From the NCBI GenBank assembly GCA_951812955.1, contig OX638340.1, positions 1,024,001 to 1,088,000 on the forward strand: DNA of 64,000 nt, written 5' to 3'. The notes under the pieces are model-generated. The model saw nothing but the letters and a program-made list of their open reading frames with translations, had not been told where the DNA came from and made no database searches. The position numbers and the translations under genes were made by a program. The DNA comes from an uncultured Gemmatimonadota bacterium (GTDB taxonomy: Bacteria > JAAXHH01). Below are positions 4,437 through 37,489 of the stretch, piece by piece (position 1 is the first letter of the stretch; each line of letters begins with the position of its first letter).

Positions 4437-4449
4437 AGAAGGAACCCAC

Positions 4450-21246: not shown

Positions 21247-21308
21247 ATGCACAGTAGAAAACCTCATCCGCATGACGGATGCTTGAACCGCCGGAAACGG
21301 AGCAGAAC

Positions 21309-22427: not shown

Positions 22428-22442
22428 CCGGCTGTTCGAACG

Positions 22443-22514
22443 GAATCCCACCCATGACCGGATCCGCATGCATGACCGGAATCCCACCTATGACCGGATC
22501 CACACGCATGACCG
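22443..22514. repeat. 36-bp tandem repeat x2 (33/36 identical), rich in ATGACCG submotifs
   Basis: Units at 22443-22478 and 22479-22514 differ at 3 positions. ATGACCG occurs 5 times between 22424 and 22514. Confidence 0.9.
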
Positions 22515-22589
22515 TTACGCGCGGCACGATACACAGTTACGAGCATAGCGCCAACCTAGAAGCAGTACCAAACTACAGAAAGGACAGCC

Positions 22590-23648
22590 ATGGCTGACGA
22601 ACGGACCTACAAGGCTTGCGTGGTGGGCCTGAGCGGCATCGGGGCGGGGCAGCCCCCGGTCGACGGCGACCACGGAATGGGCCAAGAAATGCCTAACCGG
22701 CACGTACCGGCCTATGCCCTCCTGCCGTTTACGGAGGTGGTCGGTGTATGTGACCTGAAAGAAGACCTCCTGCAGGAAACCATGGATGATTGGTCGGGTA
22801 CCTTCCCGGGATTGCGGGGATTCGCGGACTACAGGGAGATGCTTGAAGCCTGCAAACCGGATATACTGAGCGTAGTAACATCGGACCACCGCCACGCGGA
22901 CATCGTCGTGGACGGAGTCGCGGCGGGCGTTCGGGGCATCTATTGCGAGAAACCGATTGCGACCTCACTTGCGGATGCCGACCGCATGATCGCCGCGGTG
23001 GAAAGCCGGAACGTGCCCATGAACATCAACCACACCCGCCGCTGGGGAGCGGTATACCGGGAAGTCAGGAAGCTGCTCGACGAAGGCGCGATCGGCGAGC
23101 TGAAACGCATCACGCTGAATTTCGGCGGCCCCCGGGCCATTCTTTTCCGCAACGGCACCCACATGATCGACATGGCCTGCTACCTCGCGGGATCGGAACC
23201 CGCGTGGGTTTTCGCCGAACTCGACGAAGGCTACGAGGACTACTGGCCCTACCAGGGCGATGGCGGAAGGAACGCGGACCTGGAGCCGGGCTGCTCCGGT
23301 TTCATCCATTTCAAGAACGGCGTGCGTGCATTTTACAACGGTTCCAAGGGAATGGAATGCCGTGGAGGTTACCAGCTGGACGGTACCGACGGATGGATGT
23401 TCGTTCACGAGGACTATTACGAGCTCGACACGGGTAAAGGTATCCAGACTGTCGCTCCCAAGGGTCCGACCCATTACTACTCCGTCGCGGCTATCCGGGA
23501 CCTCGTCCACGTCATGGAACACGGAGGTGAGACCATTTCACCTCCCCGCGCCGCCCGGAATACCCTGGAGATCATCCTGGGGTTTCTCGCATCACAGAAG
23601 CACGGCAACGTACGCATAGATTTCCCGCTGGACGAGAACACCGTATAG
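22590..23648 (+). CDS. Gfo/Idh/MocA family oxidoreductase
   Basis: Contains the N-terminal VVGLSGIGAG and the EKP motif (IYCEKPIA). 352 aa. Confidence 0.75.
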   Translation: MADERTYKACVVGLSGIGAGQPPVDGDHGMGQEMPNRHVPAYALLPFTEVVGVCDLKEDLLQETMDDWSGTFPGLRGFADYREMLEACKPDILSVVTSDHRHADIVVDGVAAGVRGIYCEKPIATSLADADRMIAAVESRNVPMNINHTRRWGAVYREVRKLLDEGAIGELKRITLNFGGPRAILFRNGTHMIDMACYLAGSEPAWVFAELDEGYEDYWPYQGDGGRNADLEPGCSGFIHFKNGVRAFYNGSKGMECRGGYQLDGTDGWMFVHEDYYELDTGKGIQTVAPKGPTHYYSVAAIRDLVHVMEHGGETISPPRAARNTLEIILGFLASQKHGNVRIDFPLDENTV

Positions 23649-23671: not shown

Positions 23672-25714
23672 ATGAGCGTTCGCATCGCCATCGACACGGG
23701 CGGCACGTTTACAGACCTTGTATTGTCCGACCCCGACACGGGCCGGCTGGTCTTTCACAAGGTGCCGAGTACGCCCGCCGATCCGAGCCGGGCACTGGTG
23801 GAAGGTGTCAAAGGGCTCGTCGACCGGGCCGGCGTCGGCACTGCCGAAATCCTGTTTCTGATTCACGGTACCACGGTGGCCACCAATACGATCCTTCAGC
23901 GGAAGGGGGCCCATACCGCCTTCATCACCACCGAAGGGTTCCGGGACGTGCTCCACATCCAGCGGCAGGACCGCCCCCACCTGTACAACATGCGCATCCG
24001 CCGGACCCCGGCCCTCGTACCCCGCTCACTGCGATATGAGCTGCCCGAACGGACCCTGCACGACGGGTCGGAAGCGGCGCCGATAGACCAAGATCGACTT
24101 GGCAGCCTCGTGGCGGCACTCAGGGAGGAAGGCATCGAAGCCGTCGGCGTCGGGTTTCTCCACAGTCACATCGATCCCGGTCACGAACAATCGGCAGGCG
24201 AAGTGCTGCGGCGGGCACTGCCCGAAACCACAGTCTGCCTCTCCTCCGACATGAGTCGTGAAGAAGGCGAATACGAACGGTTCAGTACTTGCGTCATGAA
24301 CGCCTACGTGCAGCCCATCATGACGAACTACCTGAAGAAGGTGGACGATGCCCTTTCCAAGGCATCCATCGAGGCGCCGCTGTATGTCATGAAATCCAAT
24401 GGCGGGGTCACCTCGGCCCGGGACGCAGCGGATCACTGCGTGCATACGATTCTTTCAGGTCCGGCCGGGGGTGTCGTGGCCGGCGAGGAAATCGGAAGGC
24501 GGCTCGACCGGCCAAACGTCATCACCGCCGACATGGGGGGAACAAGTTTCGACGTGGCGATGATATATGAACGCAACATAGCTTTCGCGAAGAACGCGGA
24601 GATCGACGGCCTGGCCCTCAAAGCCCCCATGATGGACATCCATACGATTGGCGCAGGCGGTGGCAGCATCGCATGGATCGATTCGGGCGGCGCCCTGAGG
24701 GTGGGCCCGCAATCGGCAGGGGCGGAGCCGGGTCCCGCCTGCTACGGCGCCGGCGGTTCCGAACCCACCGTGACAGACGCGAACCTGGTGCTGGGCCGGC
24801 TCTCCACGGACAGTCTGCTGGGCGGCGCGCTGTCGCTGGATTCCGAAACCGCGCGTCGGGTGATCGACGAGAAAATCGCGGCCAGTCTGCAATGCACGGT
24901 GGAGGAGGCCGCCGAAGGGATCATCCGGGTGATCAACGCCTCCATGACGGCGGCCATCCGGAAGCTCACCGTGGAACGGGGGTACGATCCCCGCCTCTTT
25001 ACGCTGGTTCCCTTCGGCGGCGCAGGACCGCTCCATGGTACCGCTCTTGCCCGGGAACTGGGCATACGCGACGTGGTGGTACCGCTCGCGCCCGGGGTCG
25101 CTTCGGCCGAGGGCCTCGTTTTTTCGAACCTGCGTTCGGACCGGATCCAGACCCACGTAGAACTGCTGGATCGACTCGGGGCTTCGGAATTCGAGAAGAT
25201 GCTGGAAGAACTGACCGTACAGGCGGAAGGGGATCTGTCTACTTCGTCGGCTACAGGCCATCCGGTCATCAGCCGGCGCGCGGGCCTGCGATACGCAGGT
25301 CAGGGGTACGATATTCCCATCGACCTGCCCGAGGGCGCCGCCGACCTCGCCTTGCTCGAATCGGCCTTTCACCTCGAGCACGAGCGCCAGTACGGATTCG
25401 CGCGGCGTGATCAACGGGTTCAACTCGTCAACCTGTGGGTGTCTGCGGAACTGGTGATTTCGGGCAGCCGGCGTGATACCGCCGAACGAGCCGTGCCGGA
25501 TCGACCCAAACCACCTACCATGCGGCCCGTGTATCTTTCAGGCAACTGGATCGAAACAGCCGTGTTTGACCGTACCGCACTGCGCAGCGGCCAACAGATC
25601 GACGGACCGGCCATCATCGAACAGCTTGATTCCACGACACTGATCTGGCCCGGTGAGCACGCAGGAATCGATGCCTGGGATCAGATCGTCATTGCCGGAC
25701 TGGAAAACCCATGA
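23672..25714 (+). CDS. hyuA: hydantoinase/oxoprolinase family, A (beta) subunit
   Basis: 680 aa. The N-terminus MSVRIAIDTGGTFTDLV is characteristic of HyuA/OplA-type ATP-dependent hydrolases. Confidence 0.85.
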   Translation: MSVRIAIDTGGTFTDLVLSDPDTGRLVFHKVPSTPADPSRALVEGVKGLVDRAGVGTAEILFLIHGTTVATNTILQRKGAHTAFITTEGFRDVLHIQRQDRPHLYNMRIRRTPALVPRSLRYELPERTLHDGSEAAPIDQDRLGSLVAALREEGIEAVGVGFLHSHIDPGHEQSAGEVLRRALPETTVCLSSDMSREEGEYERFSTCVMNAYVQPIMTNYLKKVDDALSKASIEAPLYVMKSNGGVTSARDAADHCVHTILSGPAGGVVAGEEIGRRLDRPNVITADMGGTSFDVAMIYERNIAFAKNAEIDGLALKAPMMDIHTIGAGGGSIAWIDSGGALRVGPQSAGAEPGPACYGAGGSEPTVTDANLVLGRLSTDSLLGGALSLDSETARRVIDEKIAASLQCTVEEAAEGIIRVINASMTAAIRKLTVERGYDPRLFTLVPFGGAGPLHGTALARELGIRDVVVPLAPGVASAEGLVFSNLRSDRIQTHVELLDRLGASEFEKMLEELTVQAEGDLSTSSATGHPVISRRAGLRYAGQGYDIPIDLPEGAADLALLESAFHLEHERQYGFARRDQRVQLVNLWVSAELVISGSRRDTAERAVPDRPKPPTMRPVYLSGNWIETAVFDRTALRSGQQIDGPAIIEQLDSTTLIWPGEHAGIDAWDQIVIAGLENP

Positions 25715-27390
25715 AGACCGACCCCATCACCCTGGAACTGATGCGCAACCGGTGGACCGGCATCGCGGAGGAAATGTGCGCCGCGCTGATCCGCACCAGT
25801 TACTCCACCAATATCAAGGACCGGCGCGACTGTTCCGCGGCCATCGTGCAGCCCACGGGGGAGATCCTGGCCCAGGCCGAGTCGGGCGTCCCCTTACACC
25901 TGGGCGTGATGCCAGGCGTGGTGAAGTCCATCCTGGAAGTCTATCCCGTGTCGGCCATGAAGCCTGGAGACGTCTACATCACGAACCTGCCGTATCCCGA
26001 AGGACCGGGCCATCTGCCGGATGTTTCCCTGGTATCCGCCATATTCTATGAAAACCGCGCGGTCGCACTGGCGGCATCCACCGCCCATCACGTGGACATG
26101 GGCGGGTTCGCACCGGGCAGCATGCCCTTCGGCGTGACGGAAATCTACCAGGAGGGCCTGCAGATCCCCCCGCTCCCCATTTTCAAGGGCGGACAGCTTG
26201 ACGAAGATATCTACAAGTTGATCAACCAGAACGTGCGGACGCAGTACGAGGTGCGGGGCGACCTGATGGCCCAGTACGCCTGCGCACAGATCGGCCAGCA
26301 GAGGGTAAGCGAACTCATGTCCAGGGAGTCGCCCGAAGAAGTAATCCACTACATGGACGAGATCCAGGACTACGCGGAACGACGGATGCGGGCGGGGATA
26401 GGGACCCTGCCCGACGGCGAGTACACCTTCGAGGACTACCTGGACGACGACGGCGTCACCGATACGCCAGTGAAGATCGCGGTCGCCCTGACCGTCTCGG
26501 GCGACGAACTGCGCGCGGACTTTTCGGGTTGCAGCGACCAGGTTCTGGGTCCGCTGAACGCGCGGCTGCCGGCGGCCGCTTCCTGCATAAGCTACGTGTG
26601 CAAGGCGGTGATCGATCCGGACCTGCCCGCGTGTGCCGGGGCGTACCGGCCCCTGGACATCTTCGCCCCCGAGGGATCCATCCTGCAGGCTACCTATCCG
26701 GCGGCCATCGGGAACGCCAACATCCTGACGGACCAGCGGGTCGTGGACGTGCTGATGGGCGCGCTGTACCAGGCCGCGCCCGACCGCGTATGCGCGGCCT
26801 GCAGCGGGGAGATGAACCTGGTAAATATCGGCGGAATCGATCCTGCTTCCGGGGAGTACTACAACTACGTGGAAACCTACGCCGGTGGGCAGGGCGCCAT
26901 GTTCGACATCGACGGAGAGGACGGCGTGCACACGCACCTCACCAACACACGGAACGCGCCGGTCGAAATCATGGAACGTACCTACCCGCTGCGGGTCGAG
27001 CGGTACGGCCTGATCCCGGATACGGAGGGGCCCGGCCGCCAGCGCGGAGGCTGCGGGATGATGCGGGAGCTGAAGTGCCTGGGTGAACGCACCATCATCA
27101 CCCTGGGTTCAGACCGCCGGAAGTTCACGCCCTGGGGGCTCGAAGGCGGCGGCAATGCGTCGGGCGCCCACTGTTACGTGATCGACAACGAAGGGCAGGT
27201 CAGGGAGATCCCTACCAAGGCCCATACCGAGCTTTACAGGGACGACGTCCTGCGGATCGAAACCCCCGGCGGCGGTGGCTGGGGAGACCCGGCCGAACGG
27301 GTCCGGGAGAAAGTGGAAGAGGATGTGCGAAACGAGCTCATTGGCCCGGAACGGGCGAGCGGACACTACAGATGGGGGAAGGATCAGTAA
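25711..27390 (+). CDS. hyuB: hydantoinase B/oxoprolinase family, B (alpha) subunit
   Basis: 559 aa with N-terminal DPITLELMRNRW...IAEEM. A 4-nt ATGA overlap with hyuA indicates coupling. Confidence 0.85.
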   Translation: MKTDPITLELMRNRWTGIAEEMCAALIRTSYSTNIKDRRDCSAAIVQPTGEILAQAESGVPLHLGVMPGVVKSILEVYPVSAMKPGDVYITNLPYPEGPGHLPDVSLVSAIFYENRAVALAASTAHHVDMGGFAPGSMPFGVTEIYQEGLQIPPLPIFKGGQLDEDIYKLINQNVRTQYEVRGDLMAQYACAQIGQQRVSELMSRESPEEVIHYMDEIQDYAERRMRAGIGTLPDGEYTFEDYLDDDGVTDTPVKIAVALTVSGDELRADFSGCSDQVLGPLNARLPAAASCISYVCKAVIDPDLPACAGAYRPLDIFAPEGSILQATYPAAIGNANILTDQRVVDVLMGALYQAAPDRVCAACSGEMNLVNIGGIDPASGEYYNYVETYAGGQGAMFDIDGEDGVHTHLTNTRNAPVEIMERTYPLRVERYGLIPDTEGPGRQRGGCGMMRELKCLGERTIITLGSDRRKFTPWGLEGGGNASGAHCYVIDNEGQVREIPTKAHTELYRDDVLRIETPGGGGWGDPAERVREKVEEDVRNELIGPERASGHYRWGKDQ

Positions 27391-27465: not shown

Positions 27466-28845
27466 ATGGTTAATGGAACCATACCAAAACGTATAGCCAT
27501 TATCGGCGGTGGGATATCCGGGCTGGGCGCAGCGTGGGCGTTGAATCAACATCCAGACCGGTTCGATTTCCGTATTTACGAAGCCCGGGAGCAGGTGGGC
27601 GGAAACGCAATCACCGCCGACATGCCGCAGGATGACGGCGGTTCCATTCCCTTCGACATTTCCGTCACCGCACTGATCCCATCGGTCTATCACCACATCC
27701 TGTTGTTGATGCGGAAGTTCGGCATCGAACTGCTCGATACCCGGTTCAACTACAGCGTGAAATACCATGGGCAGGTATACGCCCACGATTTCGACTCCGC
27801 CATCAGAAGGCAGCTGCAACCGGAGATTGTCCGGTTTCAACGGCTCCTGAAGCGTCTTCACCGGCTCGGCTGGCTGACCCATTCCCGGTCGAGGCTCGTC
27901 AACGCGCTCAATCCCTTAAATTACGTCAGCATGGGGACCGTGCTCAACCTGGGCGGTTTTTCAGGGGACTTCAGGTTCAAGATCCTGAAGCCCATGTTCG
28001 TCAATTTCCTGATGGCGACGAACGTGTTCGATATGCCCGCGTCGCTTTTTGCGCGGTACCTGGAGTTCTTCGATATCGAATCTGCGACGCCCATGCAGAC
28101 GTGGGACCAGGGCACGCGTCGTATCTACGAGCACCTTTCAGCCGGTTTCCGGGACAGGATATACCTCGGCCGGCCCGTACGAAAAGTGTACCGACGGCCG
28201 AACTGTGTCGTGATCGAGGATCCGGACGGAGTAGAGGAGACGTTCGACGAGGTGATCTTCGCCTGCAACGCGAACCAGACGCTGATGCTGCTCGACCGGC
28301 CCACGTTTCTGGAGCGGTACATTCTGTCGTCGATCCGTTATGAAAGCGAACTCCACAACCACACGGTCGTGCATTCGGACGCCTCCGTCCTGCCGGAGAA
28401 CGAAGTGAAACCGCTGGAGACGCGGAGCAATCATATTGAACAGTACGGGGCCAGGCCGGACAACTATGAAATAACCTACATCATGCACAACCAGCAGCCA
28501 TGGGCCAACCGGTCCGACAAACCCTGCCTGGTGACCTATAACCCGGTCACGCCCATCGACGAACGGAAGATCGTCAAGAAGTGGTGGTTCCAGCACATCG
28601 TGCATGATGTGCGCCATGTCGCCTGGCTCATCCATCTGTTCCGTTTCATCCAGGGCAGACGGCGGACCTGGCACTGCGGTGCCCATACCCTGATGAACAG
28701 CCAGGAAACCTGCTTTGTAACGGGACTCGCCGCGGCCTCGCAGATCGGCGCTGAATATCCCTTCAAAGACCCCCTGGCCAGGCGCATGTTCAATTATTAC
28801 GGAAGAATTCTGCACGGCTGGCGTTTCCGGAAGGCGAGAGGTTGA
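27466..28845 (+). CDS. NAD(P)/FAD-binding oxidoreductase (amine-oxidase-like Rossmann flavoprotein)
   Basis: The dinucleotide fold reads RIAIIGGGISGLGAAWAL...YEAREQVGGN. 459 aa. The substrate is unknown. Confidence 0.7.
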   Translation: MVNGTIPKRIAIIGGGISGLGAAWALNQHPDRFDFRIYEAREQVGGNAITADMPQDDGGSIPFDISVTALIPSVYHHILLLMRKFGIELLDTRFNYSVKYHGQVYAHDFDSAIRRQLQPEIVRFQRLLKRLHRLGWLTHSRSRLVNALNPLNYVSMGTVLNLGGFSGDFRFKILKPMFVNFLMATNVFDMPASLFARYLEFFDIESATPMQTWDQGTRRIYEHLSAGFRDRIYLGRPVRKVYRRPNCVVIEDPDGVEETFDEVIFACNANQTLMLLDRPTFLERYILSSIRYESELHNHTVVHSDASVLPENEVKPLETRSNHIEQYGARPDNYEITYIMHNQQPWANRSDKPCLVTYNPVTPIDERKIVKKWWFQHIVHDVRHVAWLIHLFRFIQGRRRTWHCGAHTLMNSQETCFVTGLAAASQIGAEYPFKDPLARRMFNYYGRILHGWRFRKARG

Positions 28846-29090: not shown

Positions 29091-30167
29091 TTGCATACCT
29101 CCGAAACGATCGCAACCCCCATGGCCGACGCAGATACCGTACACCGTACCGGGCACGCTCCGGGTGGCCTACCCCCCTTCCCGGAAGGCTGGTACCTGGT
29201 AACCACGCGCGAAACCCTGTTGCGGGAAAAACTGATCGAGAAGATGTGGATGGGGGAGAACATCGTCGCATGGTGTGACGAGGAAGGCCGTATCTGCGTG
29301 GCCGACGCGGTTTGTCCGCACCTGGGTTCCGACCTGGGACCGCAGGTCGGCGGCAAGATTCACGGTGGCCGCCTGGTCTGTCCGTTCCACGGGTTCGAGT
29401 TCGATGCGACGGGTCAATGCGTCGCGACGCCCAACGCCCCGGCGCCGAAAGCCGCGAAACTGACCGTGTATGAAACCCGTGAGATCTCCGGCCTGGTCTT
29501 CGCGTGGTACGGAATCGACGGCCGTCCCGCGCACTGGCACCTGCCGGACGATCCTCCGACCGGTAACGAGTGGGGCGAACTGGGATTCAGAACCCTGCGT
29601 TTTCGCAGCCATCCACAGGAAACGGCGGAGAACTCCGTGGATATCGGACACCTGCGCTACGTACACGGCTATGACAATGTGGACCCGGTCGGCCCGGTGA
29701 CGGTGGACGGAGCCTACCTGAGGAGCTGTTTCAACTTCAAGCGCGTCCGCAGCATTATGGGCTTGAAGGACCTCACCTATGAAGTATCGGCCGTCGCCCA
29801 TATCCACGGTCTGGGATACTCCTATGTCGAAGTCCACGAAAAAACGATCGATATGCACTTGAGACTGTGGGTACTGCCCACGCCGATCGATGGCAGCCTG
29901 ATCGATCTCGTACTGGCGGGCCAATTGCAGGGAATCCGCAGACCCCGGCGTTTCATCTCGGGCCTGGGGTTCCTCCCCATGGCGTTGCGCAACCGCTTGA
30001 TGAAGCAAATCATGCTTTCACAGCAAAAACGGGACGTACTGCAGGACGTGGTGATCTGGGAACGAAAGCAGTTTCGCACGCCGCCCCGGCTGTGCAAGGC
30101 CGATGGGCCCATTGGCCTTTACCGGCGCTATTGCCTGCAGTTCTATCCTGAACAACCGAAAGCCTGA
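29091..30167 (+). CDS. Rieske [2Fe-2S] non-haem iron oxygenase (KshA / cholesterol-7-desaturase / SdmA-like class)
   Basis: The Rieske motif is CPHLGSDLG...CPFHGFEF (CxH...CxxH), followed by a catalytic-domain-sized C-terminus. The TTG at 29091 is preceded by GGAAGGA. An alternative ATG lies at 29121. Confidence 0.8.
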   Translation: MHTSETIATPMADADTVHRTGHAPGGLPPFPEGWYLVTTRETLLREKLIEKMWMGENIVAWCDEEGRICVADAVCPHLGSDLGPQVGGKIHGGRLVCPFHGFEFDATGQCVATPNAPAPKAAKLTVYETREISGLVFAWYGIDGRPAHWHLPDDPPTGNEWGELGFRTLRFRSHPQETAENSVDIGHLRYVHGYDNVDPVGPVTVDGAYLRSCFNFKRVRSIMGLKDLTYEVSAVAHIHGLGYSYVEVHEKTIDMHLRLWVLPTPIDGSLIDLVLAGQLQGIRRPRRFISGLGFLPMALRNRLMKQIMLSQQKRDVLQDVVIWERKQFRTPPRLCKADGPIGLYRRYCLQFYPEQPKA

Positions 30168-30255: not shown

Positions 30256-31050
30256 CTATCCGCCGTCCTCCAGCTCAGCCAGAGTCTCCAGCACCCCCTG
30301 CTGGATGAACTCCTCGTAGGCGTCCCGTGTCGGTAGTTCGGCCGCCTTCGACAGCATTTTCGTGGCCCGCGCCCGGCCGTCCTCGCGATCAAGATATGGA
30401 AGCCTGAGCGCATATTCAAACAGCACGACCTTCGAGTCCGGAGCTAGCTCCAGAGCCCGCTCGTAATGGATGACGGCGTTTTTCCGATTCCCCTTGTACA
30501 AGAACCGTGCAACGCGCCCGGCACGTGCGATGTCGGCGTGCCAGCCCCCTAAGGCCATATGCGCCTCTGCGAAGTCGGGGGAGATGGTGAGCGCGGTCTC
30601 GAGCAAATCGCGTGCCCTGCCCGCCAGACCTCGGCGAAATGCAGTTAGTTTACCGATACTCTGTGCATATCGGCCAACAGCGTGCGCGGATTGGAAATAT
30701 GCTTCGGAATTGGTCGAATCGATGCGCACTGCTTCTTCCCCGTACTCTATCGCGCGTTCCAAAATACCGTTCCGGTCCTCCTCAGTCGCCACATGGTGGC
30801 CGTACACCGCGAGCGATTGCGCCGCAAGGGCGTAGCCTTCGGATGTACCGACGGCTGACGCGAGATCCGCCGCCTCGAGAAAACGGCCTTCCTCGAAATC
30901 GGTCCTTGCTTCATCGATCGACTGCGCGTTCGCGCCAGCCGGGTCGGCCAGGCTGGCCGCAATAATCACGAATCCCGCAACTGCCACGAAACGGACAACT
31001 GCCGCGAATCCCGCAACGACTGCGAAACGGTAAAACTGGGTAAGGGTCAT
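30256..31050 (-). CDS. secreted/periplasmic TPR (Sel1/TPR-like) repeat protein
   Basis: 264 aa. A hydrophobic N-terminus ends ...PAGANA|Q, followed by helical repeat segments (...AEAHMALGGWHADIA..., ...AVIHYERALELAPDS...). Confidence 0.6.
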   Translation of the reverse strand: MTLTQFYRFAVVAGFAAVVRFVAVAGFVIIAASLADPAGANAQSIDEARTDFEEGRFLEAADLASAVGTSEGYALAAQSLAVYGHHVATEEDRNGILERAIEYGEEAVRIDSTNSEAYFQSAHAVGRYAQSIGKLTAFRRGLAGRARDLLETALTISPDFAEAHMALGGWHADIARAGRVARFLYKGNRKNAVIHYERALELAPDSKVVLFEYALRLPYLDREDGRARATKMLSKAAELPTRDAYEEFIQQGVLETLAELEDGG

Positions 31051-31208: not shown

Positions 31209-32252
31209 CTAAAGAGGTTTACGAGCCAGGAAACAGTACAGCGGCGTGAAGATACCCGACCTGCCGCCCTCGACATAAGCGTCAGCAGTTCGATCCAGGA
31301 GTCGGACCACTTCCGAATACCCCTTCGGAATCAGACTTAGCGCTTCGGCCATCTTCGATCCTGCGATCACGGCCTTGCGACCCCAAGGGAGCCTGTTCAG
31401 TGCGTTCCCCAAAGTCCCATGCCGACTCTCCATTGGCCGATACCAAGGCGTGGAGGGTTCATTCCGGACGTCTCGGTCCATCCCTTCGATGACGTGGAAT
31501 CCCGCCGCTTCAAGCCCGTGATTCACTTCCCTGAACGTCGCAATGTCGTTCAGCGCAATGCCGCGCATGAGGTCCTGCTCAATGGCCCGGTGCCGGTTGT
31601 CTTTCGGATCGAATTTCTCGGTCAGACACATTTCCTGACCCCAAAACAGGGCTCCTGGTTTGAGTACGCGGAAGATCTCCGCGAAAGCGCGTTCCTTGTC
31701 TGGCGCGTGGCACGTTGACTCGATGGCATAGGCTCGGTCAAACGTCTCGTCCTCAATGCCGCCCATATCCATGAAGCTACACGTCTCGTAATCGACCATG
31801 TGGCCGAGTCCCGCTTCAGCGTTCAACCGCTTTGCCTTATCCAATTGGAGTTCGTTGATGTTGATTCCGACAACCCGGACGCCGGCCTCCCGGACGACGC
31901 GACGCATCGGACCGCCGATTCCACAACCAACGTCGGCCACCGTCATACCCTGCTCCAACTCCAGCTTCGAGATCATCAACCGCTGATGCCGGATTATGGA
32001 TTCCTCCAGGCTTTCATCGGGCTTTAGTGGCGCGAAGTGGAGGGATTCGCTCCAACCCCACACCATTAACCCGCTGCAAAGATCATAGTACTCTTTCACT
32101 GTTTCTGTGTGGTCGTACTCATACGCGCCATCGGCCCCCGGGACCGCCCGGGCTGCCCGGGCGGTCCAGCCTTCAAGGCGCTGCGCGCGACTCTTGACGT
32201 CCGATCCCCGGCTCGCATCTTTCAGTTCTCTGGATAGTTTGCCCATCGCCAT
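31209..32252 (-). CDS. sterol C-24 methyltransferase (ERG6/SMT family, with Sterol_MT_C-type C-terminus)
   Basis: The protein is collinear with my recollection of yeast ERG6. YYDLCSGLMVWGWSESLHF corresponds to YYNVVTDFYEYGWGSSFHF, DVGCGIGGP to DVGCGVGGP, AIESTCHAP to AIEATCHAP, FRVLKPG to YKVLKPG, and C-terminal IFTPLYCFLARKP to LFTPMMLFVARKP. Confidence 0.85.
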   Translation of the reverse strand: MAMGKLSRELKDASRGSDVKSRAQRLEGWTARAARAVPGADGAYEYDHTETVKEYYDLCSGLMVWGWSESLHFAPLKPDESLEESIIRHQRLMISKLELEQGMTVADVGCGIGGPMRRVVREAGVRVVGININELQLDKAKRLNAEAGLGHMVDYETCSFMDMGGIEDETFDRAYAIESTCHAPDKERAFAEIFRVLKPGALFWGQEMCLTEKFDPKDNRHRAIEQDLMRGIALNDIATFREVNHGLEAAGFHVIEGMDRDVRNEPSTPWYRPMESRHGTLGNALNRLPWGRKAVIAGSKMAEALSLIPKGYSEVVRLLDRTADAYVEGGRSGIFTPLYCFLARKPL

Positions 32253-32288: not shown

Positions 32289-34316
32289 TCAGACTTGCAG
32301 TTCGTGTCTTTGCTCGGAGATGACGAACTGCAGCTTCTTGGTCGGTTTCATAGACGGAAACGGATTGAACCGCAGCTTATAGTTTGCAGGCGACACATCG
32401 ATCTTGAAGTAGTGCGCCAGCATCAGCACGTTGACAGCCAATTGCAGTTCCATCCAACGGGTGCCGAGACACATGTGCGTGCCCAGCCCGTACGGAGCGT
32501 ACCCGGGGCTGCGATGCTCATTGCGCGACGGCAAGTAGCGGTCGATGTCGAAGGAGTGCGGGTCGGGGAAGATGTCACTCATGTAATGCGAGGCGGTCGG
32601 CGCGATGTGGATCCGTTCCCTCATGGGCAGTTCGTATCCCTCAAACACACACGTATTCATCACGTGTCGAACAGACATGGGAACGATCGGGTACATGCGC
32701 ATACACTCCATGAGGAAGCGGTGCGTGACGTCAATCGCGGATGGAGTGAAGGCCTCGATGTCCGGAACGCCGTTCCCGAATACGTCATCGGCTTCATTTC
32801 GGATTTTCTCGTAGAGTGCAGGCTGCGACGCCATGGCATAGACTACCAGACTGAACGTGTCACCAAGGTACACGCTGGCGATCAACGCCGCAGAAAAGGC
32901 AAACCGCAGGTTGGCCTCCGGGAGGAATTGCGGGTCGCTCGCGTGCAGGCTAAGGTAATCGTCCACCAGGTCCCGCGGTTTTCCGGCCCGTTGGGCGGGG
33001 GTGTGGCCCTCCTCGACTCTTTTCATCAGTGTATCAAGGGATTTCGCCCGGCGTTTCATGCCCGGGGTGTTCAGCGTGAACTCGGGCAGCATCCTGGCGA
33101 TATGCACGCTGAGCGCCCGTTCCTTGTACTGCATCAGATCGTCCATCAGGTCCTGCGTGTCGATGCCGATAAACAGGGGCGAGAGTTGGGCGTTTATCAT
33201 CTGCCGGCACATGGACGTAGCAGAATAGGAATCGCCGACATTCAAGCTTGCCATGTATTTCCAGGCATGATGGTAGAGCTTGTCCAGCTGCCCCGCAAGT
33301 CTCCCGCGTGAATACGCTGGAGACAAAGACTTGCGCAGGCGGAAATGGTCGGCGCCGTCCAGGGAAGGCAAGAGGCCGGAAGCGCCGTAGACTTTCTCGA
33401 AGTCTCTGAAATAGTCCTTGGCACTCAGGTACATGCGCCCGTGCTTATGCACCCAGCGGTTTGCCTCGGGTCCGACCAGGAAGACCATGGGCCGGGTGAA
33501 AGGAGGGCGGATCTCAAACACCGGACCGTAGTCCTGCGCAAGGTCCGCAAAGAGCGCGTGGAGGTTGCCGTCTCGAACATGCGGTTGCATCATCAGCTTG
33601 CGTAACGGTACCCTCGGAATCTTCTTTGTAAAACCGGGACGTCGAAGCGTCGGGCCGGCGAGTTTGTGGGAGACTGCTTCGGCGATGGACCGGCCGATCA
33701 CGTCCATCTTGCAGATCAACTCGATGCGTTGCTCCGTCTCGTCATCGAGTTGGAACATGAATCGAAACACATCGCACGTATTGACGAGGCAAATTACGAT
33801 AACGTCTCTCGGGTCGGGGATCTCGTTCATGAAGATCGCCCGGCTGATCCGCGTTCTGATGAACTGACTTGCAGTACTCGAATCGACATCGTTGTTCAAT
33901 TCCATCTTCCAGTCAGTACGGGCCAGCGTCCAGAACTCGCCATCGTGGTGTTCCAGGATCTTCATTTCTACCAGGCGATCCAGAACCGAATCTATAATGG
34001 TCTCCGCTCGGGGGGCCAGCCGTTCGATCCAGTACTGTGTATTGTGCTGATTTGGCTCATTTACGATTTCTTCCAGAATGAAATCGATGGTGGAATTGCC
34101 CGTTGGTGTCTGGTCGAGGACGAACAGAGACCCCGGGTCCGTGTCGATGCGAGATCTGATTGAAAGCTCCGCAAGTGCGGCACCGATTACGGCGCAGTTC
34201 AAATCCCAGCCAGGCACCTGGTGGAAGTAGCCAGTCTCCTCATTGAGGAGCATCAGGATGAGTTCCTGGGTCAAAGTAAGTGATTGGGGCTTCACGTCCT
34301 TTGCAGTATCAGCCAT
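32289..34316 (-). CDS. GPP34 (GOLPH3/Vps74-like) domain fused to cytochrome P450
   Basis: The N-terminal ~200 aa follow the GPP34 pattern (LTQELILMLLNEETGYF...WDLNCAVIGAALAELSIRSRI...PDPRDVIVICL). The C-terminal part has P450 ExxR (ECMRMYP) and haem loop YGLGTHMCLG. The start is taken at the ATG at 34316, which overlaps the RND stop (TAATG); the ORF extends to 34406. Confidence 0.8.
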   Translation of the reverse strand: MADTAKDVKPQSLTLTQELILMLLNEETGYFHQVPGWDLNCAVIGAALAELSIRSRIDTDPGSLFVLDQTPTGNSTIDFILEEIVNEPNQHNTQYWIERLAPRAETIIDSVLDRLVEMKILEHHDGEFWTLARTDWKMELNNDVDSSTASQFIRTRISRAIFMNEIPDPRDVIVICLVNTCDVFRFMFQLDDETEQRIELICKMDVIGRSIAEAVSHKLAGPTLRRPGFTKKIPRVPLRKLMMQPHVRDGNLHALFADLAQDYGPVFEIRPPFTRPMVFLVGPEANRWVHKHGRMYLSAKDYFRDFEKVYGASGLLPSLDGADHFRLRKSLSPAYSRGRLAGQLDKLYHHAWKYMASLNVGDSYSATSMCRQMINAQLSPLFIGIDTQDLMDDLMQYKERALSVHIARMLPEFTLNTPGMKRRAKSLDTLMKRVEEGHTPAQRAGKPRDLVDDYLSLHASDPQFLPEANLRFAFSAALIASVYLGDTFSLVVYAMASQPALYEKIRNEADDVFGNGVPDIEAFTPSAIDVTHRFLMECMRMYPIVPMSVRHVMNTCVFEGYELPMRERIHIAPTASHYMSDIFPDPHSFDIDRYLPSRNEHRSPGYAPYGLGTHMCLGTRWMELQLAVNVLMLAHYFKIDVSPANYKLRFNPFPSMKPTKKLQFVISEQRHELQV

Positions 34317-37300
34317 TAGTGGCCTCCCTTCATCAGACGCAGATGAATGGTAGAAAGAGCGGGAACGACCATCATGAGTATGGCCGTGACGACGAGGATA
34401 CCGCAACCAAGCGATGCGGCAAAGGGAACCAGGAACTGAGCATGAATAGCGCGTTCCAGAATCAAGGGGGTGAAGCCGAGAAACGTAGTCAGAGAAGTAA
34501 GCATAATCGGACGAAAACGTCCCTTTGCGCCCTCTATGATCGCAGTTCGCGCCGGAGCGCCTTCCCTGAGTTTCTGATCGATGAAAACGATCATGACCAG
34601 TGAATCGTTCACAACCACGCCGCTCAGGCCGAATATACCCATGAAGGAGATTGCGCTCAGGGCTACTCCAAGGGCCCAGTGACCAAGGATCACTCCGATG
34701 AACCCGAACGGGATCACCGCCATGATGATGAACGGTTTGGTATAGGATCGTAAGGGGATGGCGAGCAGCACGAAGATCATGATCAGAGCGATCGCAAATC
34801 CGCGATACAGTGCATCCAGGGAATCGAGTTGTTGTTGTTGCTCACCTCCGAACGTGTAGGTCAGGTCCGGGTACACGGCGGTCAATTCCGCGAGGATTGA
34901 ATCCGCCAGGATGCTATTGGCCTGGTCACCGGAGATCACCGCGGCATCCACGTCCGCAGTGACCGTGACGACACGCTGACCATCCTTCCGCCGAATGGCC
35001 GGCGGCGACACGCCCGTGTTCAGCGCGGCCACACTGACGATCGGGACCTCGGCACCGGCCGGCGTACGGATCAGGTACCTTTCGATATCGGTGATGGAAC
35101 TTCGTTCATCGGCGGGCAGGCGCACGTAGACCCGAACCTCTTCACGGCCGCGCTGCACCCGGACGGCATCCGCACCGAAAAACGCGGCGCGCGTCTGTCC
35201 GGCCAACGCTTCCAGCGTGAGACCCAAAGTCCGCGCTTCCGGCCGGAGTTCAAGCTGTATTTCCGGGATACCCGGGGTGTGATCCGAACGGACATCGTAG
35301 ACGCCTGTCACTCCACGGAGACCATCGACCACCGAGTCCGCAATCCGGGCGAGTCGCACCGGATCCGGATGCGACAGCACGGCCTCGACCGGGTTGCCCA
35401 GGTCGAAGACCTCTCCGCTGAAGGTGACACCGCGCACGTAGGGCAGCACACCCACTTCCTCTCGCCATGCCTGCACAACCTCTCCGGTAGTGATCTGCCT
35501 TTGCTCCGCGCTCAGGAGTTTGAACTCGATGGTTGCAATGTTGGCCTGAGGATTAAGGGTGGGGGCTGGATTAAGCCCACCCTCGAGCCTCGAGCCCTGT
35601 CCGACGGTCACCATTACGCCGGTCAGCAGTGGTGGCGCATCCTCGGGGCGGCCGCGCGAAAGCCGATCGACGACCCGGTAACCTGCGGCCTCCAGTTCCT
35701 GTGCCACCTCGTATGTCCTTGGAGCGGTCGTCCCGTCGGGCATCTCCAGGATGACCGTCGCAAAATCCCCCTCCACGTCAGCAGCCAACGTGGTAGGTAC
35801 GATCCCCGCCGGTACCAGCGAGATACTAAGTACGAGTATTCCAACGGCCCCCCCCAGCGTGACCGCGGGCTGATCCGTCGCGAACCGTAACGCTCGGTCC
35901 AGGGGACCCTGCACGAACCGGTTCAGCGACTCGTTCACACGTCCCTGGATCCGCGCGAAGAACCGGTCGAAAGCACTTGTCGGCGTCCATTCCGGACCGT
36001 GCAAACGGGACAGGTGGTTGGGTAGTACCAGCAGTGATTCGATCAGGGAAACAAACAGTATGGCGATAAGGATGATCGGCAGTGCCCGCCATACGTCACC
36101 GACGCCTCCGGGTATGAACAGCAGCGGGACGAAAGCCACCACCGAAGTAAGGACCGCGAAGGTCAACGGCACTTTTATCCGTCGTACTCCGCGTATCGCA
36201 GCCACGACACCGGGCGTTCCCCGACTGCGTTCATATTGAATGTGCTCGGCTACGACGATGGCGTCATCGACGACAATCCCTATGGCGAGGACGAAAGAGA
36301 ACAGGCTGATGGTGTTAATAGCTACGTCGAGTACCATCATGACGGCCAATGTGCCTATACCCGAAACGGCGAGGCCGACGGCGACCCACAATGCAAGCCG
36401 GATTTCCAGAAACAGGCTGAGTGCGATCAACACCAGCAACAGACCCAGGATGCCATTCTTGACGAGAATATCGGCACGTTCCTCATAGGCTTGGGATTCG
36501 TCATTCCACATGGTGATGTGCACACCGTTCGGCAGAGCCGGGATCACCTCGTTTGCCATATGTTCCCGGACAGTCGTGGCGACGTCCATCACTTGTTCGC
36601 CGTTGGCTCGGTACACCTCGACGAATACAGCGGGATGGTTCTGATGCCGAACAATCAGGTCGGATTCCTGAAAACCATCGCGAACCCTGGCGATATCGCC
36701 AAGGCGCAAGGCAGTGCCGTCACTTCTGCTAAGCAGGATGATCTCTTCGAAATCCTGCTGGTCGTAGTTCTGGCCGAGGGTACGAACCCGCACCTGGGAT
36801 TCCCGGGTATCGATACTGCCGGCAGAAAGGTTCAGGGAACTGCGACGAATGGTATTGGCGACATCGGCGAGTGTCAGTCCAAGGGCTCTCAGCCGATGAA
36901 GCGGCACCTCGATGGAGATCTCGTATTTCCGAACACCACTGACCTCGACCTGGGACACGGACGGAAGCGCCGTGAGTCCATCCTCGATCTGATATGCCGT
37001 TTCCTTCAGCGAGCGTTCGGACACGTCGCCGTAGACGATGAACCGTATCATGCTCATACGGTTGTCCATCTCACGGAAACTGGGACGATCGGCACCGGCC
37101 GGGAAAGACTGGATGCGATTGACCGCGGACTCGATATCGTTGAGCGCCTGGACCATGTCCGTACCGAAATCCATTTGAATCCGCACGGATGCTATACCCG
37201 GGGCCGCTACAGACTTGACCGCCTTCACGTCATCCAACCCGCTGACCTGGTCCTCGATCTTGACGACGATCGACTCCTCGACCTCCTCCGGCGTGGCGCC

Positions 37301-37489
37301 GGGATAGGCCATCGACACTTCGATATGGTAGAAGGGAGTAGTGGGCCACGCTTCCCGATCGATGCCGGACAGCGAAATCAGCCCTGCGGCGACGATGGCC
37401 ATCATCAACAGATTGGCGGCCACGCTGTTGCCCGTCATGTAAGCGATCGGACCGGAAGGTTCGTTATGATTTCCGTTGTCCATACTCAT
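34316..37489 (-). CDS. RND efflux transporter permease (AcrB/HAE-type, 12-TM)
   Basis: 1057 aa with AcrB-like architecture and sequence style (...AYPGATPEEVE...VKSVAAPG...). A 4-nt overlap links it with the MFP gene. Confidence 0.9.
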   Translation of the reverse strand: MSMDNGNHNEPSGPIAYMTGNSVAANLLMMAIVAAGLISLSGIDREAWPTTPFYHIEVSMAYPGATPEEVEESIVVKIEDQVSGLDDVKAVKSVAAPGIASVRIQMDFGTDMVQALNDIESAVNRIQSFPAGADRPSFREMDNRMSMIRFIVYGDVSERSLKETAYQIEDGLTALPSVSQVEVSGVRKYEISIEVPLHRLRALGLTLADVANTIRRSSLNLSAGSIDTRESQVRVRTLGQNYDQQDFEEIILLSRSDGTALRLGDIARVRDGFQESDLIVRHQNHPAVFVEVYRANGEQVMDVATTVREHMANEVIPALPNGVHITMWNDESQAYEERADILVKNGILGLLLVLIALSLFLEIRLALWVAVGLAVSGIGTLAVMMVLDVAINTISLFSFVLAIGIVVDDAIVVAEHIQYERSRGTPGVVAAIRGVRRIKVPLTFAVLTSVVAFVPLLFIPGGVGDVWRALPIILIAILFVSLIESLLVLPNHLSRLHGPEWTPTSAFDRFFARIQGRVNESLNRFVQGPLDRALRFATDQPAVTLGGAVGILVLSISLVPAGIVPTTLAADVEGDFATVILEMPDGTTAPRTYEVAQELEAAGYRVVDRLSRGRPEDAPPLLTGVMVTVGQGSRLEGGLNPAPTLNPQANIATIEFKLLSAEQRQITTGEVVQAWREEVGVLPYVRGVTFSGEVFDLGNPVEAVLSHPDPVRLARIADSVVDGLRGVTGVYDVRSDHTPGIPEIQLELRPEARTLGLTLEALAGQTRAAFFGADAVRVQRGREEVRVYVRLPADERSSITDIERYLIRTPAGAEVPIVSVAALNTGVSPPAIRRKDGQRVVTVTADVDAAVISGDQANSILADSILAELTAVYPDLTYTFGGEQQQQLDSLDALYRGFAIALIMIFVLLAIPLRSYTKPFIIMAVIPFGFIGVILGHWALGVALSAISFMGIFGLSGVVVNDSLVMIVFIDQKLREGAPARTAIIEGAKGRFRPIMLTSLTTFLGFTPLILERAIHAQFLVPFAASLGCGILVVTAILMMVVPALSTIHLRLMKGGH

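What the first reader, a model, noticed from the sequence alone, without database searches (positions are those of the whole stretch)
31209..32252. ERG6/SMT-type sterol C-24 methyltransferase in a bacterium
The 347-aa product aligns block-for-block with eukaryotic sterol 24-C-methyltransferases. The matching blocks are the substrate region YY...WGWSESLHF, SAM motif I DVGCGIGGP, AIESTCHAP, and the Sterol_MT_C-like tail TPWYRPM...IFTPLYCFLARKP. C-24 alkylated steranes are used as eukaryotic (algal or sponge) biomarkers. Bacterial SMTs have only recently been reported from uncultured bacteria, so each new genomic context is informative. Hand-counted lines suggest somewhat lower GC than the flanking genes (35/60 at 31501-31560, against 40-42/60 in lines of clearly native genes). 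That is compatible with horizontal acquisition.
Basis: partly seen in the sequence, partly recalled or inferred. Interest (0 to 1): 0.7.

Follow-up and report, generated by a model that had tools for sequence, protein, structure and literature searches.

The report
Divergent sterol-methyltransferase-like gene in symbiont pump operon
The gene is a real bacterial member of the sterol-methyltransferase family, but it belongs to a distinct sponge/coral-symbiont subfamily with a rebuilt substrate pocket; the two members tested so far did not methylate the standard C-24 substrates, so it should not be counted as a source of C-24 alkylated sterol biomarkers until its real substrate is found.

Summary

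It is not a canonical ERG6-type enzyme. It sits in a monophyletic subfamily (200/200 NJ bootstrap) that keeps the SAM site but changes the sterol-binding segments: Y81M, E82V, F89L, A221W, Y223Q, W225M and I249 (ERG6 numbering).

I matched two members about 75% identical to it, from a coral Nitrospira MAG and an Aplysina aerophoba symbiont, to genes assayed by Brown et al. Both fall in the 'No activity' group for desmosterol and 24-methylenecholesterol. Their canonical SMT neighbours were active.

The gene is the last in a tightly coupled operon: OMF, MFP, AcrB, GPP34-P450 fusion, SMT. A KshA-like Rieske oxygenase and an amine-oxidase-fold flavoprotein lie beside it. This module recurs at 72-92% identity in MAGs labelled with about ten phyla. 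All 65 JGI metagenome hits are in sponge-type contig series.

The window has no cyclase or other sterol-synthesis gene.

Most likely it methylates a sterol-like lipid other than a simple delta-24 sterol, and the pump exports the product. It is a new variant of a known kind.

The parts
31209..32252 (-). SMT-family SAM-dependent methyltransferase (347 aa) of the divergent 'MVW' subfamily. The SAM motif VADVGCGIGGP and the Sterol_MT_C tail are intact. The acceptor pocket is changed: M81, V82, W83, S86, L89, W221, Q223, M225, I249 (ERG6 numbering).
   Evidence: dN/dS of 0.11-0.28 shows purifying selection.
32289..34316 (-). GPP34 (GOLPH3-like) domain fused to a cytochrome P450 (675 aa from the ATG at 34316). 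The heme loop YGLGTHMCLG and the ExxR motif are present. It is not CYP51.
   Evidence: Pfam GPP34 100.3 bits plus p450 127.8 bits. The start overlaps the AcrB stop as TAATG. Identity to the cluster CYP51 is only 22.7%, and the best PDB hits have E about 1e-16. It is linked to the SMT in 65-74 of 80 genome loci.
34316..37489 (-). AcrB-type RND permease (1057 aa).
   Evidence: Pfam ACR_tran 533 bits and NCBIfam RND_permease_2 412 bits. It is 83-95% identical in 37 of 80 loci. It overlaps the MFP gene as ATGA.
37486..38703 (-). Membrane-fusion (periplasmic adaptor) protein of the RND pump (405 aa).
   Evidence: Pfam HlyD_3 and HlyD_D23. Present in 26 of 80 loci.
38710..40230 (-). Outer-membrane factor of the RND pump (506 aa), first gene of the operon.
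   Evidence: Pfam OEP 128.5 bits. A 6-nt gap separates it from the MFP gene. Present in 17 of 80 loci.
30256..31050 (-). TPR-repeat protein (264 aa) with a hydrophobic N-terminal signal or anchor, 158 nt downstream of the SMT. Probably a periplasmic accessory protein.
   Evidence: Pfam TPR families. N-terminal sequence. Present in 18 of 80 loci.
29091..30167 (+). Rieske [2Fe-2S] oxygenase with a KshA_C catalytic domain (358 aa), convergent with the operon. It has CxH...CxxH at residues 75-100 and HxxxxH at 187-192. It is a paralogue distinct from SdmA.
   Evidence: Pfam KshA_C 80.3 bits plus Rieske 58.2 bits. PDB best hit is KshA, E 1e-22. The NCBIfam SdmA model scores 31.8 bits against a cutoff of 600. 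It is 63% identical to the module Rieske of L032 and 22% to L032 sdmA. Present in 66 of 80 loci.
27466..28845 (+). Amine-oxidase-fold FAD flavoprotein (459 aa), resembling LkcE and the P. acnes fatty-acid isomerase.
   Evidence: Pfam Amino_oxidase and NAD_binding_8. PDB hits LkcE at E 6e-26 and 2b9w at E 2e-10. Present in 37 of 80 loci at 76-96% identity. It has been lost in the closest relative, L001.

Best explanation
The ORF encodes a functional SAM-dependent methyltransferase of the sterol-methyltransferase family. It belongs to a separate subfamily, found so far in sponge and coral symbionts, that arose inside the bacterial SMT radiation and rebuilt its acceptor pocket.

It is the last gene of a translationally coupled operon: outer-membrane factor, adaptor, AcrB permease, GPP34-P450, methyltransferase. 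A KshA-like Rieske oxygenase and an amine-oxidase-fold flavoprotein are accessory neighbours.

Inferred mechanism:
1. A sterol-like membrane lipid is the substrate. It may be made by the bacterium elsewhere in the genome or taken from the host.
2. The P450 oxidises or desaturates it at the cytoplasmic face of the inner membrane. The GPP34 domain may tether the P450 to the membrane.
3. Where present, the Rieske oxygenase and the flavoprotein also act on it.
4. This enzyme methylates the product at a carbon that is not reached from plain delta-24(25) or delta-24(28) sterols.
5. The RND pump exports the result to the outer membrane or out of the cell.

Shown: family membership, clade identity, the pocket substitutions, operon structure, module conservation and mobility, purifying selection, and the literature inactivity of two clade members on standard substrates.

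Inferred: the substrate class, the order of steps, the role of GPP34, and export.
For: - Family: Sterol_MT_C scores 56.7 bits against a cutoff of 21.7, and the SAM motif is intact. 22 of the 25 'functional SMT' residues are kept.
- Distinct clade: 200/200 NJ bootstrap, sister to canonical bacterial symbiont SMTs.
- Pocket: clade-specific substitutions cluster in sterol-binding Regions I and IV: Y81M, E82V, F89L, A221W, Y223Q, W225M, plus E108Q, D177S and I249. Brown & Welander place residues 81 and 249 within 5 A of the docked sterol side chain.
- First tested clade member: L032 is the 70,077-bp Nitrospira contig of Brown 2023. The gene order reproduces their numbering, which places the MVW copy at gene 2682229270, '2 of 2', in the 'No activity' block.
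- Second tested clade member: L088 and L090 reproduce the JGIcombinedJ30088_10000835 cluster. The MVW copy gives 35.159% identity to ERG6, against the paper's 35.16% for the inactive '2 of 2'. The neighbouring canonical copy matches the published propylating Ap_sym_SMT sequence.
- Selection: dN/dS is 0.11-0.28.
- Operon coupling: ATGA and TAATG overlaps and a 36-nt gap.
- Module conservation in 80 genome loci: P450 65-74, Rieske 66, flavoprotein 37. An RND-superfamily transporter is present in 63: AcrB in 37, and two MMPL/sterol-sensing-domain types in 15 and 11.
- Sterol link: the module directly abuts complete sterol clusters in Nitrospirales and A. aerophoba symbiont contigs. It lies about 16-20 kb from one on a 384-kb contig.
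- Transport precedent: BstA and HpnN move sterols and hopanoids (PMC10942540).
Against: - No activity has been measured for this protein or for any clade member, so the substrate is unknown.
- The negative assays used E. coli lysates and only two substrates. Poor expression or folding, or a requirement for a different sterol nucleus, would give the same result.
- One of the two tested members carries D189N (found only in that copy) and L341M (3 of 86 copies), which could inactivate it independently.
- The 'No activity' grouping was read from an OCR'd supplementary figure.
- The window has no cyclase. Two searches did not find one on the 3.81-Mb contig, but the hit lists were cut off, so the source of any sterol substrate is unresolved.
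- AcrB-type pumps are generic, and linkage to a pump could reflect detoxification and not lipid export.
Confidence: 0.55

Rival explanations
1. It is an ordinary C-24 sterol methyltransferase. It makes 24-methyl sterols from a delta-24 sterol.
For: - The Sterol_MT_C domain is present and 22 of the 25 'functional' residues are kept.
- The gene is adjacent to full sterol clusters in Nitrospirales and A. aerophoba symbionts.
- Brown & Welander's G249I mutant still made C28 sterols, so Ile249 alone does not block a first methylation.
- Only two substrates were tested.
- One tested member carries D189N, found only in that copy.
Against: - Two of two tested clade members were inactive, while their canonical neighbours worked in the same system.
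- F89 is invariant in functional SMTs, and the clade has Leu there.
- Y81, E82, Y223 and W225 are conserved in 88-96% of canonical SMTs and are replaced in 93-100% of the clade.
- In several loci the clade copy coexists with a canonical SMT in one cluster, which points to a separate function.
- In most loci, and in this 64-kb window, no sterol-synthesis gene is nearby.
Confidence: 0.2
2. It is an SMT-fold enzyme that acts on a non-sterol lipid or a host-derived terpenoid or steroid, in a detoxification-and-efflux operon. The P450, Rieske oxygenase and methyltransferase tailor a hydrophobic sponge or coral metabolite, and the pump expels it.
For: - The gene is tightly coupled to a tripartite multidrug-type RND pump.
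- Hits are confined to sponge and coral metagenomes wherever the source can be recognised.
- The window has no cyclase.
- From my own knowledge, not tested here: SMT-like enzymes with non-sterol acceptors exist, such as the Botryococcus triterpene methyltransferases. Papers mentioning them were located.
Against: - In phyla without the AcrB pump, the linked transporters are MMPL proteins with sterol-sensing-domain hits.
- The module abuts sterol clusters in several lineages.
- The partner Rieske protein is KshA-like, a steroid-oxygenase type.
Confidence: 0.17
3. It is a catalytically dead paralogue, either a pseudo-enzyme or a sterol-binding or regulatory protein.
For: Two tested clade members were inactive.
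Against: - All SAM-binding residues are kept: D125, G127, G129, G132 and P133. E195 and G217 are also kept.
- dN/dS is 0.11-0.28.
- The clade is maintained in 525 species-level genomes and has been transferred repeatedly.
Confidence: 0.04

Closest known systems
Canonical bacterial C-24 sterol methyltransferases (Brown et al. 2023, PMC10070321), for example Nitrospira '1 of 2' and the propylating A. aerophoba Ap_sym_SMT
   Same: They share the fold and domain pair (Methyltransf_11 plus Sterol_MT_C), the SAM motif and the C-terminal signature residues. They occur in the same habitat, sometimes in the same gene cluster. They are the sister group in the tree.
   Different: Identity is only 37-45%. 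Region I is MVW...SLHF where canonical enzymes have Y/F-E-Y/F...SFHF. Region IV has W221, Q223 and M225 where canonical enzymes have A, Y and W. Position 249 is Ile. The two tested members were inactive on desmosterol and 24-methylenecholesterol. The clade is linked to a GPP34-P450 and an RND pump, not to OSC, CYP51 or ERG24.
Yeast ERG6 and plant SMT1/SMT2
   Same: Identity to ERG6 is 33-35% over the full length, and 22 of the 25 residues conserved in functional SMTs are kept.
   Different: T78, G86 and F89 of that set are missing, as are Y81, E82, Y223 and W225. The host is bacterial and the gene sits in an operon. It was validated only by its length and by 32 positions stated in the paper, and by reproducing the published identities of 35.16% and 35.63%.
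SMT-family enzymes with altered acceptors: Botryococcus triterpene methyltransferases and nematode STRM-1 C-4 methyltransferase (PMC6997595 was listed; their properties are from my own knowledge)
   Same: They set the precedent that the SMT fold can be retargeted to a different carbon or a different lipid by changing the acceptor pocket.
   Different: I made no sequence comparison with them here. They are eukaryotic and are not linked to pumps or P450 fusions.
Methylococcus BstABC and HpnN lipid-trafficking systems (PMC10942540)
   Same: RND-superfamily transporters are genetically linked to sterol- or hopanoid-modifying genes and move the lipid to the outer membrane. MMPL proteins with sterol-sensing-domain hits accompany the module in Chloroflexota and Nitrospirales loci.
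   Different: The window's pump is a tripartite AcrB/MFP/OMF system (ACR_tran 533 bits; the HpnN model scores only 21 bits), not an MMPL protein. There is no BstB-like periplasmic binding protein. I did not compare the TPR protein with BstC.
SdmA (bacterial C-4 methyl oxidase) and KshA (3-ketosteroid 9-alpha-hydroxylase), relevant to the neighbouring Rieske gene
   Same: It is a Rieske non-heme iron oxygenase with a steroid-type catalytic domain. KshA is the best PDB match at E 1e-22.
   Different: It is not SdmA. The NCBIfam SdmA model scores 31.8 bits against a cutoff of 600. Identity to the cluster sdmA is 22%. The catalytic domain is KshA_C, whereas sdmA has VanA_C. Its reaction is unknown.

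Membership tests
Sterol methyltransferase family (Pfam Methyltransf_11/25 plus Sterol_MT_C) | C-terminal Sterol_MT_C domain detected by profile search | tested here: met
   PF08498 scores 56.7 bits against a cutoff of 21.7, covering residues 289-346.
Sterol methyltransferase family (Pfam Methyltransf_11/25 plus Sterol_MT_C) | SAM-binding Region II, 125-DxGxGxxGP-133 | tested here: met
   The sequence is DVGCGIGGP, and D125, G127, G129, G132 and P133 are all present.
Functional C-24 SMTs as defined by Brown & Welander 2025 (25 conserved residues) | Region I motif 84-GWGxxFHF-91 | tested here: not met
   The window has GWSESLHF, so G86 is Ser and F89 is Leu. F89L occurs in 77 of the 86 SMT copies from the loci and in 100% of the clade set.
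Functional C-24 SMTs as defined by Brown & Welander 2025 (25 conserved residues) | [quoted passage not shown] | tested here: not met
   22 of 25 are present. T78 is Ser, G86 is Ser and F89 is Leu.
Functional C-24 SMTs | Aromatic/acidic pair Y/F81-E82 and aromatic Y223 and W225 in the sterol pocket | tested here: not met
   The window has M81, V82, Q223 and M225. These positions are 88-96% conserved in 72 canonical sequences, and the clade's replacement residues are absent from them.
Functional C-24 SMTs | Methylation of a delta-24 sterol in vitro | not testable with these tools
In the literature, the two clade members about 75% identical to the window protein (genes 2682229270 and JGIcombinedJ30088_100008359) are in the 'No activity' group for desmosterol and 24-methylenecholesterol.
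Propylating (24-isopropyl-forming) bacterial SMTs | Gly at position 249 (necessary) and Phe at position 81 and/or 83 | tested here: not met
   The window has I249, M81 and W83. The neighbouring canonical copy in L088 has F81, F83 and G249.
De novo bacterial sterol biosynthesis gene cluster | Oxidosqualene cyclase with CYP51, ERG24 and sdmAB near the SMT | tested here: not met
   tblastn with SMO-OSC, CYP51, ERG24, sdmA and sdmB found no orthologue anywhere in the 64-kb window. Pfam scans of the other ORFs found none either. Whether they exist elsewhere in the genome is unresolved.
SdmA (for the adjacent Rieske gene) | Match to the NCBIfam equivalog NF052579 and orthology to cluster sdmA | tested here: not met
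   The model scores 31.8 bits against a cutoff of 600. Identity to L032 sdmA is 22%. The domain is KshA_C, not VanA_C.
CYP51 sterol 14-alpha-demethylase (for the P450 fusion) | Close sequence relationship to CYP51 | tested here: not met
   CYP51 structures match only at E 1e-15 to 1e-10, on a par with taxadiene hydroxylase and CYP120. Identity to the cluster CYP51 is 22.7%.
HpnN/BstA-type MMPL lipid transporters (for the pump) | MMPL-family RND protein | tested here: not met
   The window pump is ACR_tran (533 bits), and the HpnN models score about 20 bits. MMPL proteins with sterol-sensing-domain hits do accompany the module in 26 other loci.

The most novel reading that the evidence does not exclude
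The MVW subfamily could be the missing enzyme for non-canonical sponge sterol side chains. Examples are terminal (C-26/C-27) methylation, which gives aplysterol-type and 26-methyl sterols (precursors of the 26-methylstigmastane biomarker), or cyclopropane-forming methylation. It would act on a side chain whose double bond has first been moved or introduced by the partner flavoprotein, P450 or Rieske enzyme.

This reading would explain four things: the inactivity on delta-24(25) and delta-24(28) substrates, the rebuilt pocket around the side chain, the coexistence with canonical C-24 SMTs in single clusters, and the restriction to sponge holobionts. It would also mean that a biomarker regarded as diagnostic of sponges is made, at least in part, by bacterial symbionts.
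Probability: 0.1. Interest if true: 0.92.

Novelty: new variant of a known kind. Interest (0 to 1): 0.6.

Why it matters
C-24 alkylated steranes, and sponge-linked steranes in particular, are used to date early eukaryotes and animals. Genome surveys now count 'SMT1/ERG6' homologues in bacteria as capacity for side-chain alkylation.

The homologue in this window represents a subfamily found in 525 species-level genomes, mostly sponge and coral symbiont MAGs. It differs from proven SMTs at exactly the pocket residues that set product outcome, and two tested members were inactive on the standard substrates. Counting such genes as C-24 alkylation capacity probably overstates the bacterial contribution to 24-alkyl steranes.

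This subfamily also comes with a defined partner set: a GPP34-P450 fusion, a KshA-like oxygenase, a flavoprotein and an RND exporter. That makes it a concrete, testable candidate for the still-unknown enzymes behind unconventional sponge sterols. The module's spread across phyla adds to the evidence that sterol-related genes are exchanged among members of sponge microbiomes.

Tried and rejected
- **Cyclase in the window's genome.** I searched the 5.8-billion-protein collection with an OSC domain from L035 and with the SMO-OSC fusion P0191, then matched 'longest_contig' lengths. No hit lay on the 3,813,436-bp contig or on the chromosomes of its syntenic relatives. Each list is cut off at 120 of 824-1435 hits, so the result is inconclusive.
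- **Source contig.** The look-up of encoding contigs with the window protein returned 'not on record'.
- **Published alignment.** I searched the supplementary alignment for MVW-type motifs. It is stored as an OCR table with no searchable residues. I linked loci to the tested genes through contig length, gene order, published percent identities and a published coding sequence instead.
- **Rieske as SdmA, P450 as CYP51.** Both readings are rejected.
- **Promoter and terminator scan of 27-40.7 kb.** Counts were no higher than in shuffled sequence, so it was uninformative.
- **P0060.** This apparent Rieske-SMT fusion looks like an in-frame read-through from a truncated gene call. It is too weak to use.
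- **Solved structures.** The PDB holds no true SMT structure. The best hits are generic class I methyltransferases, so I did not attempt structure-based pocket analysis.
- **Phylum of the window organism.** It could not be tested directly. The closest labelled syntenic relatives are Gemmatimonadota bins (L002, L071, L079), but one is labelled Latescibacterota (L029), so the labels are not fully reliable.
Full report
**Observation.** The ORF at 31209-32252 on the minus strand is real: ATG start, 347 aa. Pfam detects Methyltransf_11 (66.5 bits), Methyltransf_25 (58.7 bits) and, above its curated cutoff, Sterol_MT_C (56.7 bits against 21.7). NCBIfam has no specific model for the protein. The PDB holds no true SMT structure, and the best hits are generic class I methyltransferases.

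The GC count of 35/60 at 31501-31560 is exact. At gene level the SMT has GC 0.582 and GC3 0.681, against 0.618 +/- 0.016 and 0.76 +/- 0.033 for the flanking genes. The whole minus-strand operon shares the dip. The effect is real but modest.

**Known background.** Bacterial C-24 SMTs are no longer hypothetical. Brown et al. 2023 (PMC10070321) showed that many SMTs from sponge-symbiont and environmental metagenomes methylate desmosterol and 24-methylenecholesterol. Three of them make 24-isopropyl side chains. Many sit in clusters with OSC, CYP51, ERG24 and sdmAB. Brown & Welander 2025 (bioRxiv 10.64898/2025.12.19.695621) defined 25 residues conserved in all functional SMTs. They showed that Gly249 is necessary for propylation and that Phe81 and Phe83 promote it.

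**A distinct subfamily.** I validated it by its length (383 aa) and by 32 positions stated in the paper. It later reproduced the published identities of 35.16% and 35.63%.

The window protein keeps 22 of the 25 residues, including the whole SAM motif, E195, G217 and the C-terminal signature. It deviates at T78S, G86S and F89L. It also has M81, V82 and W83 where canonical SMTs have Y/F-E-Y/F, and A218, L219, Q223 and I249.

An unbiased comparison of 100 clade sequences with 72 canonical ones picks out these clade-defining positions: Y81M, E82V, F89L, E108Q, D177S, A221W, Y223Q and W225M. They are concentrated in sterol-binding Regions I and IV. Positions 81, 89 and 223 were used to sort the two groups, so only the other five are independent findings.

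I built a neighbour-joining tree from 122 sequences: 50%-identity representatives from a 1.84-billion-protein library, ERG6, and both SMT types from related loci. The clade is monophyletic in 200 of 200 bootstraps and lies next to canonical bacterial symbiont SMTs. Pairwise dN/dS of 0.11-0.28 shows that the gene is under purifying selection.

**Tested members of the clade.** Two clade members could be tied to genes that were assayed.

- **Nitrospira, coral reef MAG.** Locus L032 is the 70,077-bp 'Nitrospira sp., coral reef' contig of Brown 2023. Its gene order is CYP51, ERG24, sdmA, sdmB, canonical SMT, flavoprotein, OMP, Rieske, MVW SMT. This reproduces their gene numbers 278 down to 270. The MVW copy is therefore 2682229270, '2 of 2', which lies in the 'No activity' block of the 2025 Supplementary Figure 1. 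The canonical copy, 2682229274, is active. This representative carries D189N, which no other copy in the loci has, and L341M, which 3 of 86 copies have. Both are a caveat.
- **Aplysina aerophoba symbiont.** Loci L088 and L090 reproduce the JGIcombinedJ30088_10000835 cluster. The canonical copy begins MNPTPAKQSNSRSLADLAPDEVKSTVDGYT, which matches the translation of the published codon-optimised propylating Ap_sym_SMT. The MVW copy is 35.159% identical to ERG6 by BLASTP, against the paper's 35.16% for the inactive '2 of 2'. It differs from the 25-residue set only at T78S and F89L.

Both are about 75% identical to the window protein. So two of two tested clade members failed to methylate the standard substrates, in a system where their canonical neighbours worked.

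**Genomic context in the window.** The SMT is the last gene of a tightly coupled minus-strand operon:

| Gene | Coordinates | Junction with the next gene |
|---|---|---|
| OMF | 38710-40230 | 6-nt gap |
| MFP | 37486-38703 | ATGA overlap |
| AcrB permease | 34316-37489 | TAATG overlap |
| GPP34-P450 fusion | 32289-34316 | 36-nt gap |
| SMT | 31209-32252 | 158-nt gap |
| TPR protein with N-terminal anchor | 30256-31050 | - |

. Convergent with the operon are a Rieske oxygenase with a KshA_C domain (29091-30167) and an amine-oxidase-fold flavoprotein (27466-28845).

- The Rieske protein is not SdmA. The NCBIfam SdmA model scores 31.8 bits against a cutoff of 600. Identity to the cluster sdmA is 22%. 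Its domain is KshA_C, whereas sdmA has VanA_C.
- The P450 is not CYP51. Identity to the cluster CYP51 is 22.7%, and PDB matches have E about 1e-16.
- The catalytic motifs of both are intact.
- The rest of the 64-kb window holds no OSC, SMO, CYP51, ERG24, sdmAB or other terpenoid gene.

**Distribution and mobility.** The exact protein is already in NCBI and ENA on a 3,813,436-bp contig. A scan of one genome per GTDB species found relatives in 525 genomes. The best 80 are 72-92% identical. They carry labels of Gemmatimonadota, Latescibacterota, Dehalococcoidia/Chloroflexota, Nitrospirales, Nitrospinota, Actinomycetes, Rhodothermales, Binatia and Thermodesulfobacteriota. Many have bin names that I read as sponge or coral bins, from my own knowledge of those naming schemes.

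All 65 hits among JGI metagenome records fall in contig series that Brown et al. name as Aplysina, Petrosia or Sarcotragus metagenomes. One hit is of unknown source. That scan uses exact peptide patterns from the window, so it only finds close relatives.

Across the 80 genome loci the SMT travels with these partners:

| Partner | Loci (of 80) |
|---|---|
| GPP34-P450 | 65-74 |
| Rieske oxygenase | 66 |
| Flavoprotein | 37 |
| Any RND-superfamily transporter | 63 |
| of which AcrB type (83-95% identical) | 37 |
| of which two MMPL types with sterol-sensing-domain hits | 15 and 11 |

. Canonical sterol genes lie within 10 kb in only about 5-8 loci. On one 384-kb contig they lie 16-20 kb from the module.

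Flanking genes are shared only within the window's own lineage. Synonymous divergence from a 6.4-Mb 'Latescibacterota' copy is only 0.23. This agrees with Kelly et al. 2022, who reported horizontally transferred sterol gene clusters in Ircinia symbionts. The closest relative, L001, has lost the flavoprotein and retains only a 49-aa Rieske remnant, so these two genes are accessory.

**Interpretation.** The protein belongs to the SMT family and almost certainly transfers a methyl group. The conserved, clade-wide rebuilding of the acceptor pocket is the first argument against a plain ERG6-type C-24 SMT. The second is its coexistence with canonical SMTs in single clusters. The third is the two negative assays.

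Three lines of evidence tie the module to sterol-like lipids: KshA-like oxygenases act on steroids, the linked MMPL transporters have sterol-sensing-domain hits, and the module abuts sterol clusters in several lineages. The best-supported model is therefore methylation of a sterol-like lipid that has first been altered by the partner oxidoreductases, followed by RND-mediated export. BstA and HpnN provide a precedent for such export (PMC10942540).

Whether the substrate is self-made or host-derived is unresolved. Two cyclase searches found no hit on the window's contig, but the lists were cut off.

By the published residue rules, Ile249, Met81 and Trp83 argue against 24-isopropyl formation.

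**Caveats.**
- No activity has been measured for this protein.
- The negative literature assays used two substrates and E. coli lysates.
- The 'No activity' grouping was read from an OCR'd figure.
- Taxon labels come from the database records.
- The tree is distance-based.

**Verdict.** The gene is a new variant of a known kind, of moderate to high interest because it affects how bacterial 'SMT' genes are counted in biomarker arguments. It also nominates a specific enzyme set for the unexplained sponge sterol side chains.

Noticed in passing
window 51147-57900 (+): Four consecutive ORFs (702, 283, 900 and 333 aa) have no Pfam hit. The 900-aa ORF (54168-56870) has GC 0.446 and GC3 0.40 in a window that averages 0.60 GC. 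The 702-aa ORF weakly resembles type II/IIS DNA methyltransferases (NCBIfam TIGR02987, 24.7 bits; PADLOC MTase_II, 31 bits). This is probably a horizontally acquired restriction-modification or defence island containing uncharacterised proteins.
   Followed up: partly
L035:3108-6578, L082:10001-13390, and proteins P0144-P0441: Squalene monooxygenase and oxidosqualene cyclase are fused into single proteins of 1,113-1,168 aa. These fusions are very common in symbiont MAGs: more than 170 clusters at 70% identity or above, carrying labels from several phyla. Brown's tables show ERG1 and ERG7 hitting the same gene.
   Followed up: partly
L001 (OY762445.1), locus coordinates about 12000-14700: In the closest relative of the window (SMT 92% identical, same flanking synteny), the flavoprotein gene is absent and the Rieske gene is reduced to a 49-aa remnant. 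The pump-P450-SMT-TPR operon is intact.
   Followed up: partly
protein P0060 (477 aa, 9 member sequences): The 3' end of a KshA_C Rieske gene reads in frame straight into an MVW-type SMT with no stop codon between them. This is either a real Rieske-SMT fusion in some lineage or a gene-calling artefact.
   Followed up: partly
L056:11031-13508, L023:18163-20451 and 24 other loci: In Chloroflexota and Nitrospirales loci, the AcrB pump is replaced by MMPL-family transporters that also hit the Sterol-sensing and Patched SSD profiles. Three non-orthologous RND-type transporters have therefore been recruited to the same module.
   Followed up: yes
window 3570-5283 and 62370-63218; 21279-23648 and 43122-45461; 23672-27390: The window holds three PhyH-family dioxygenases, two copies of a pairing of an MR/MLE enolase-superfamily gene with a GFO/IDH/MocA oxidoreductase gene, and a hydantoinase A/B pair. 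This looks like a catabolic gene set of unknown substrates around the module.
   Followed up: no
L032:7833-8729 and 12 other loci: A 298-aa outer-membrane beta-barrel protein (OMP_b-brl) sits between the flavoprotein and the Rieske gene in Nitrospirales-type versions of the module. It is absent from the window.
   Followed up: no
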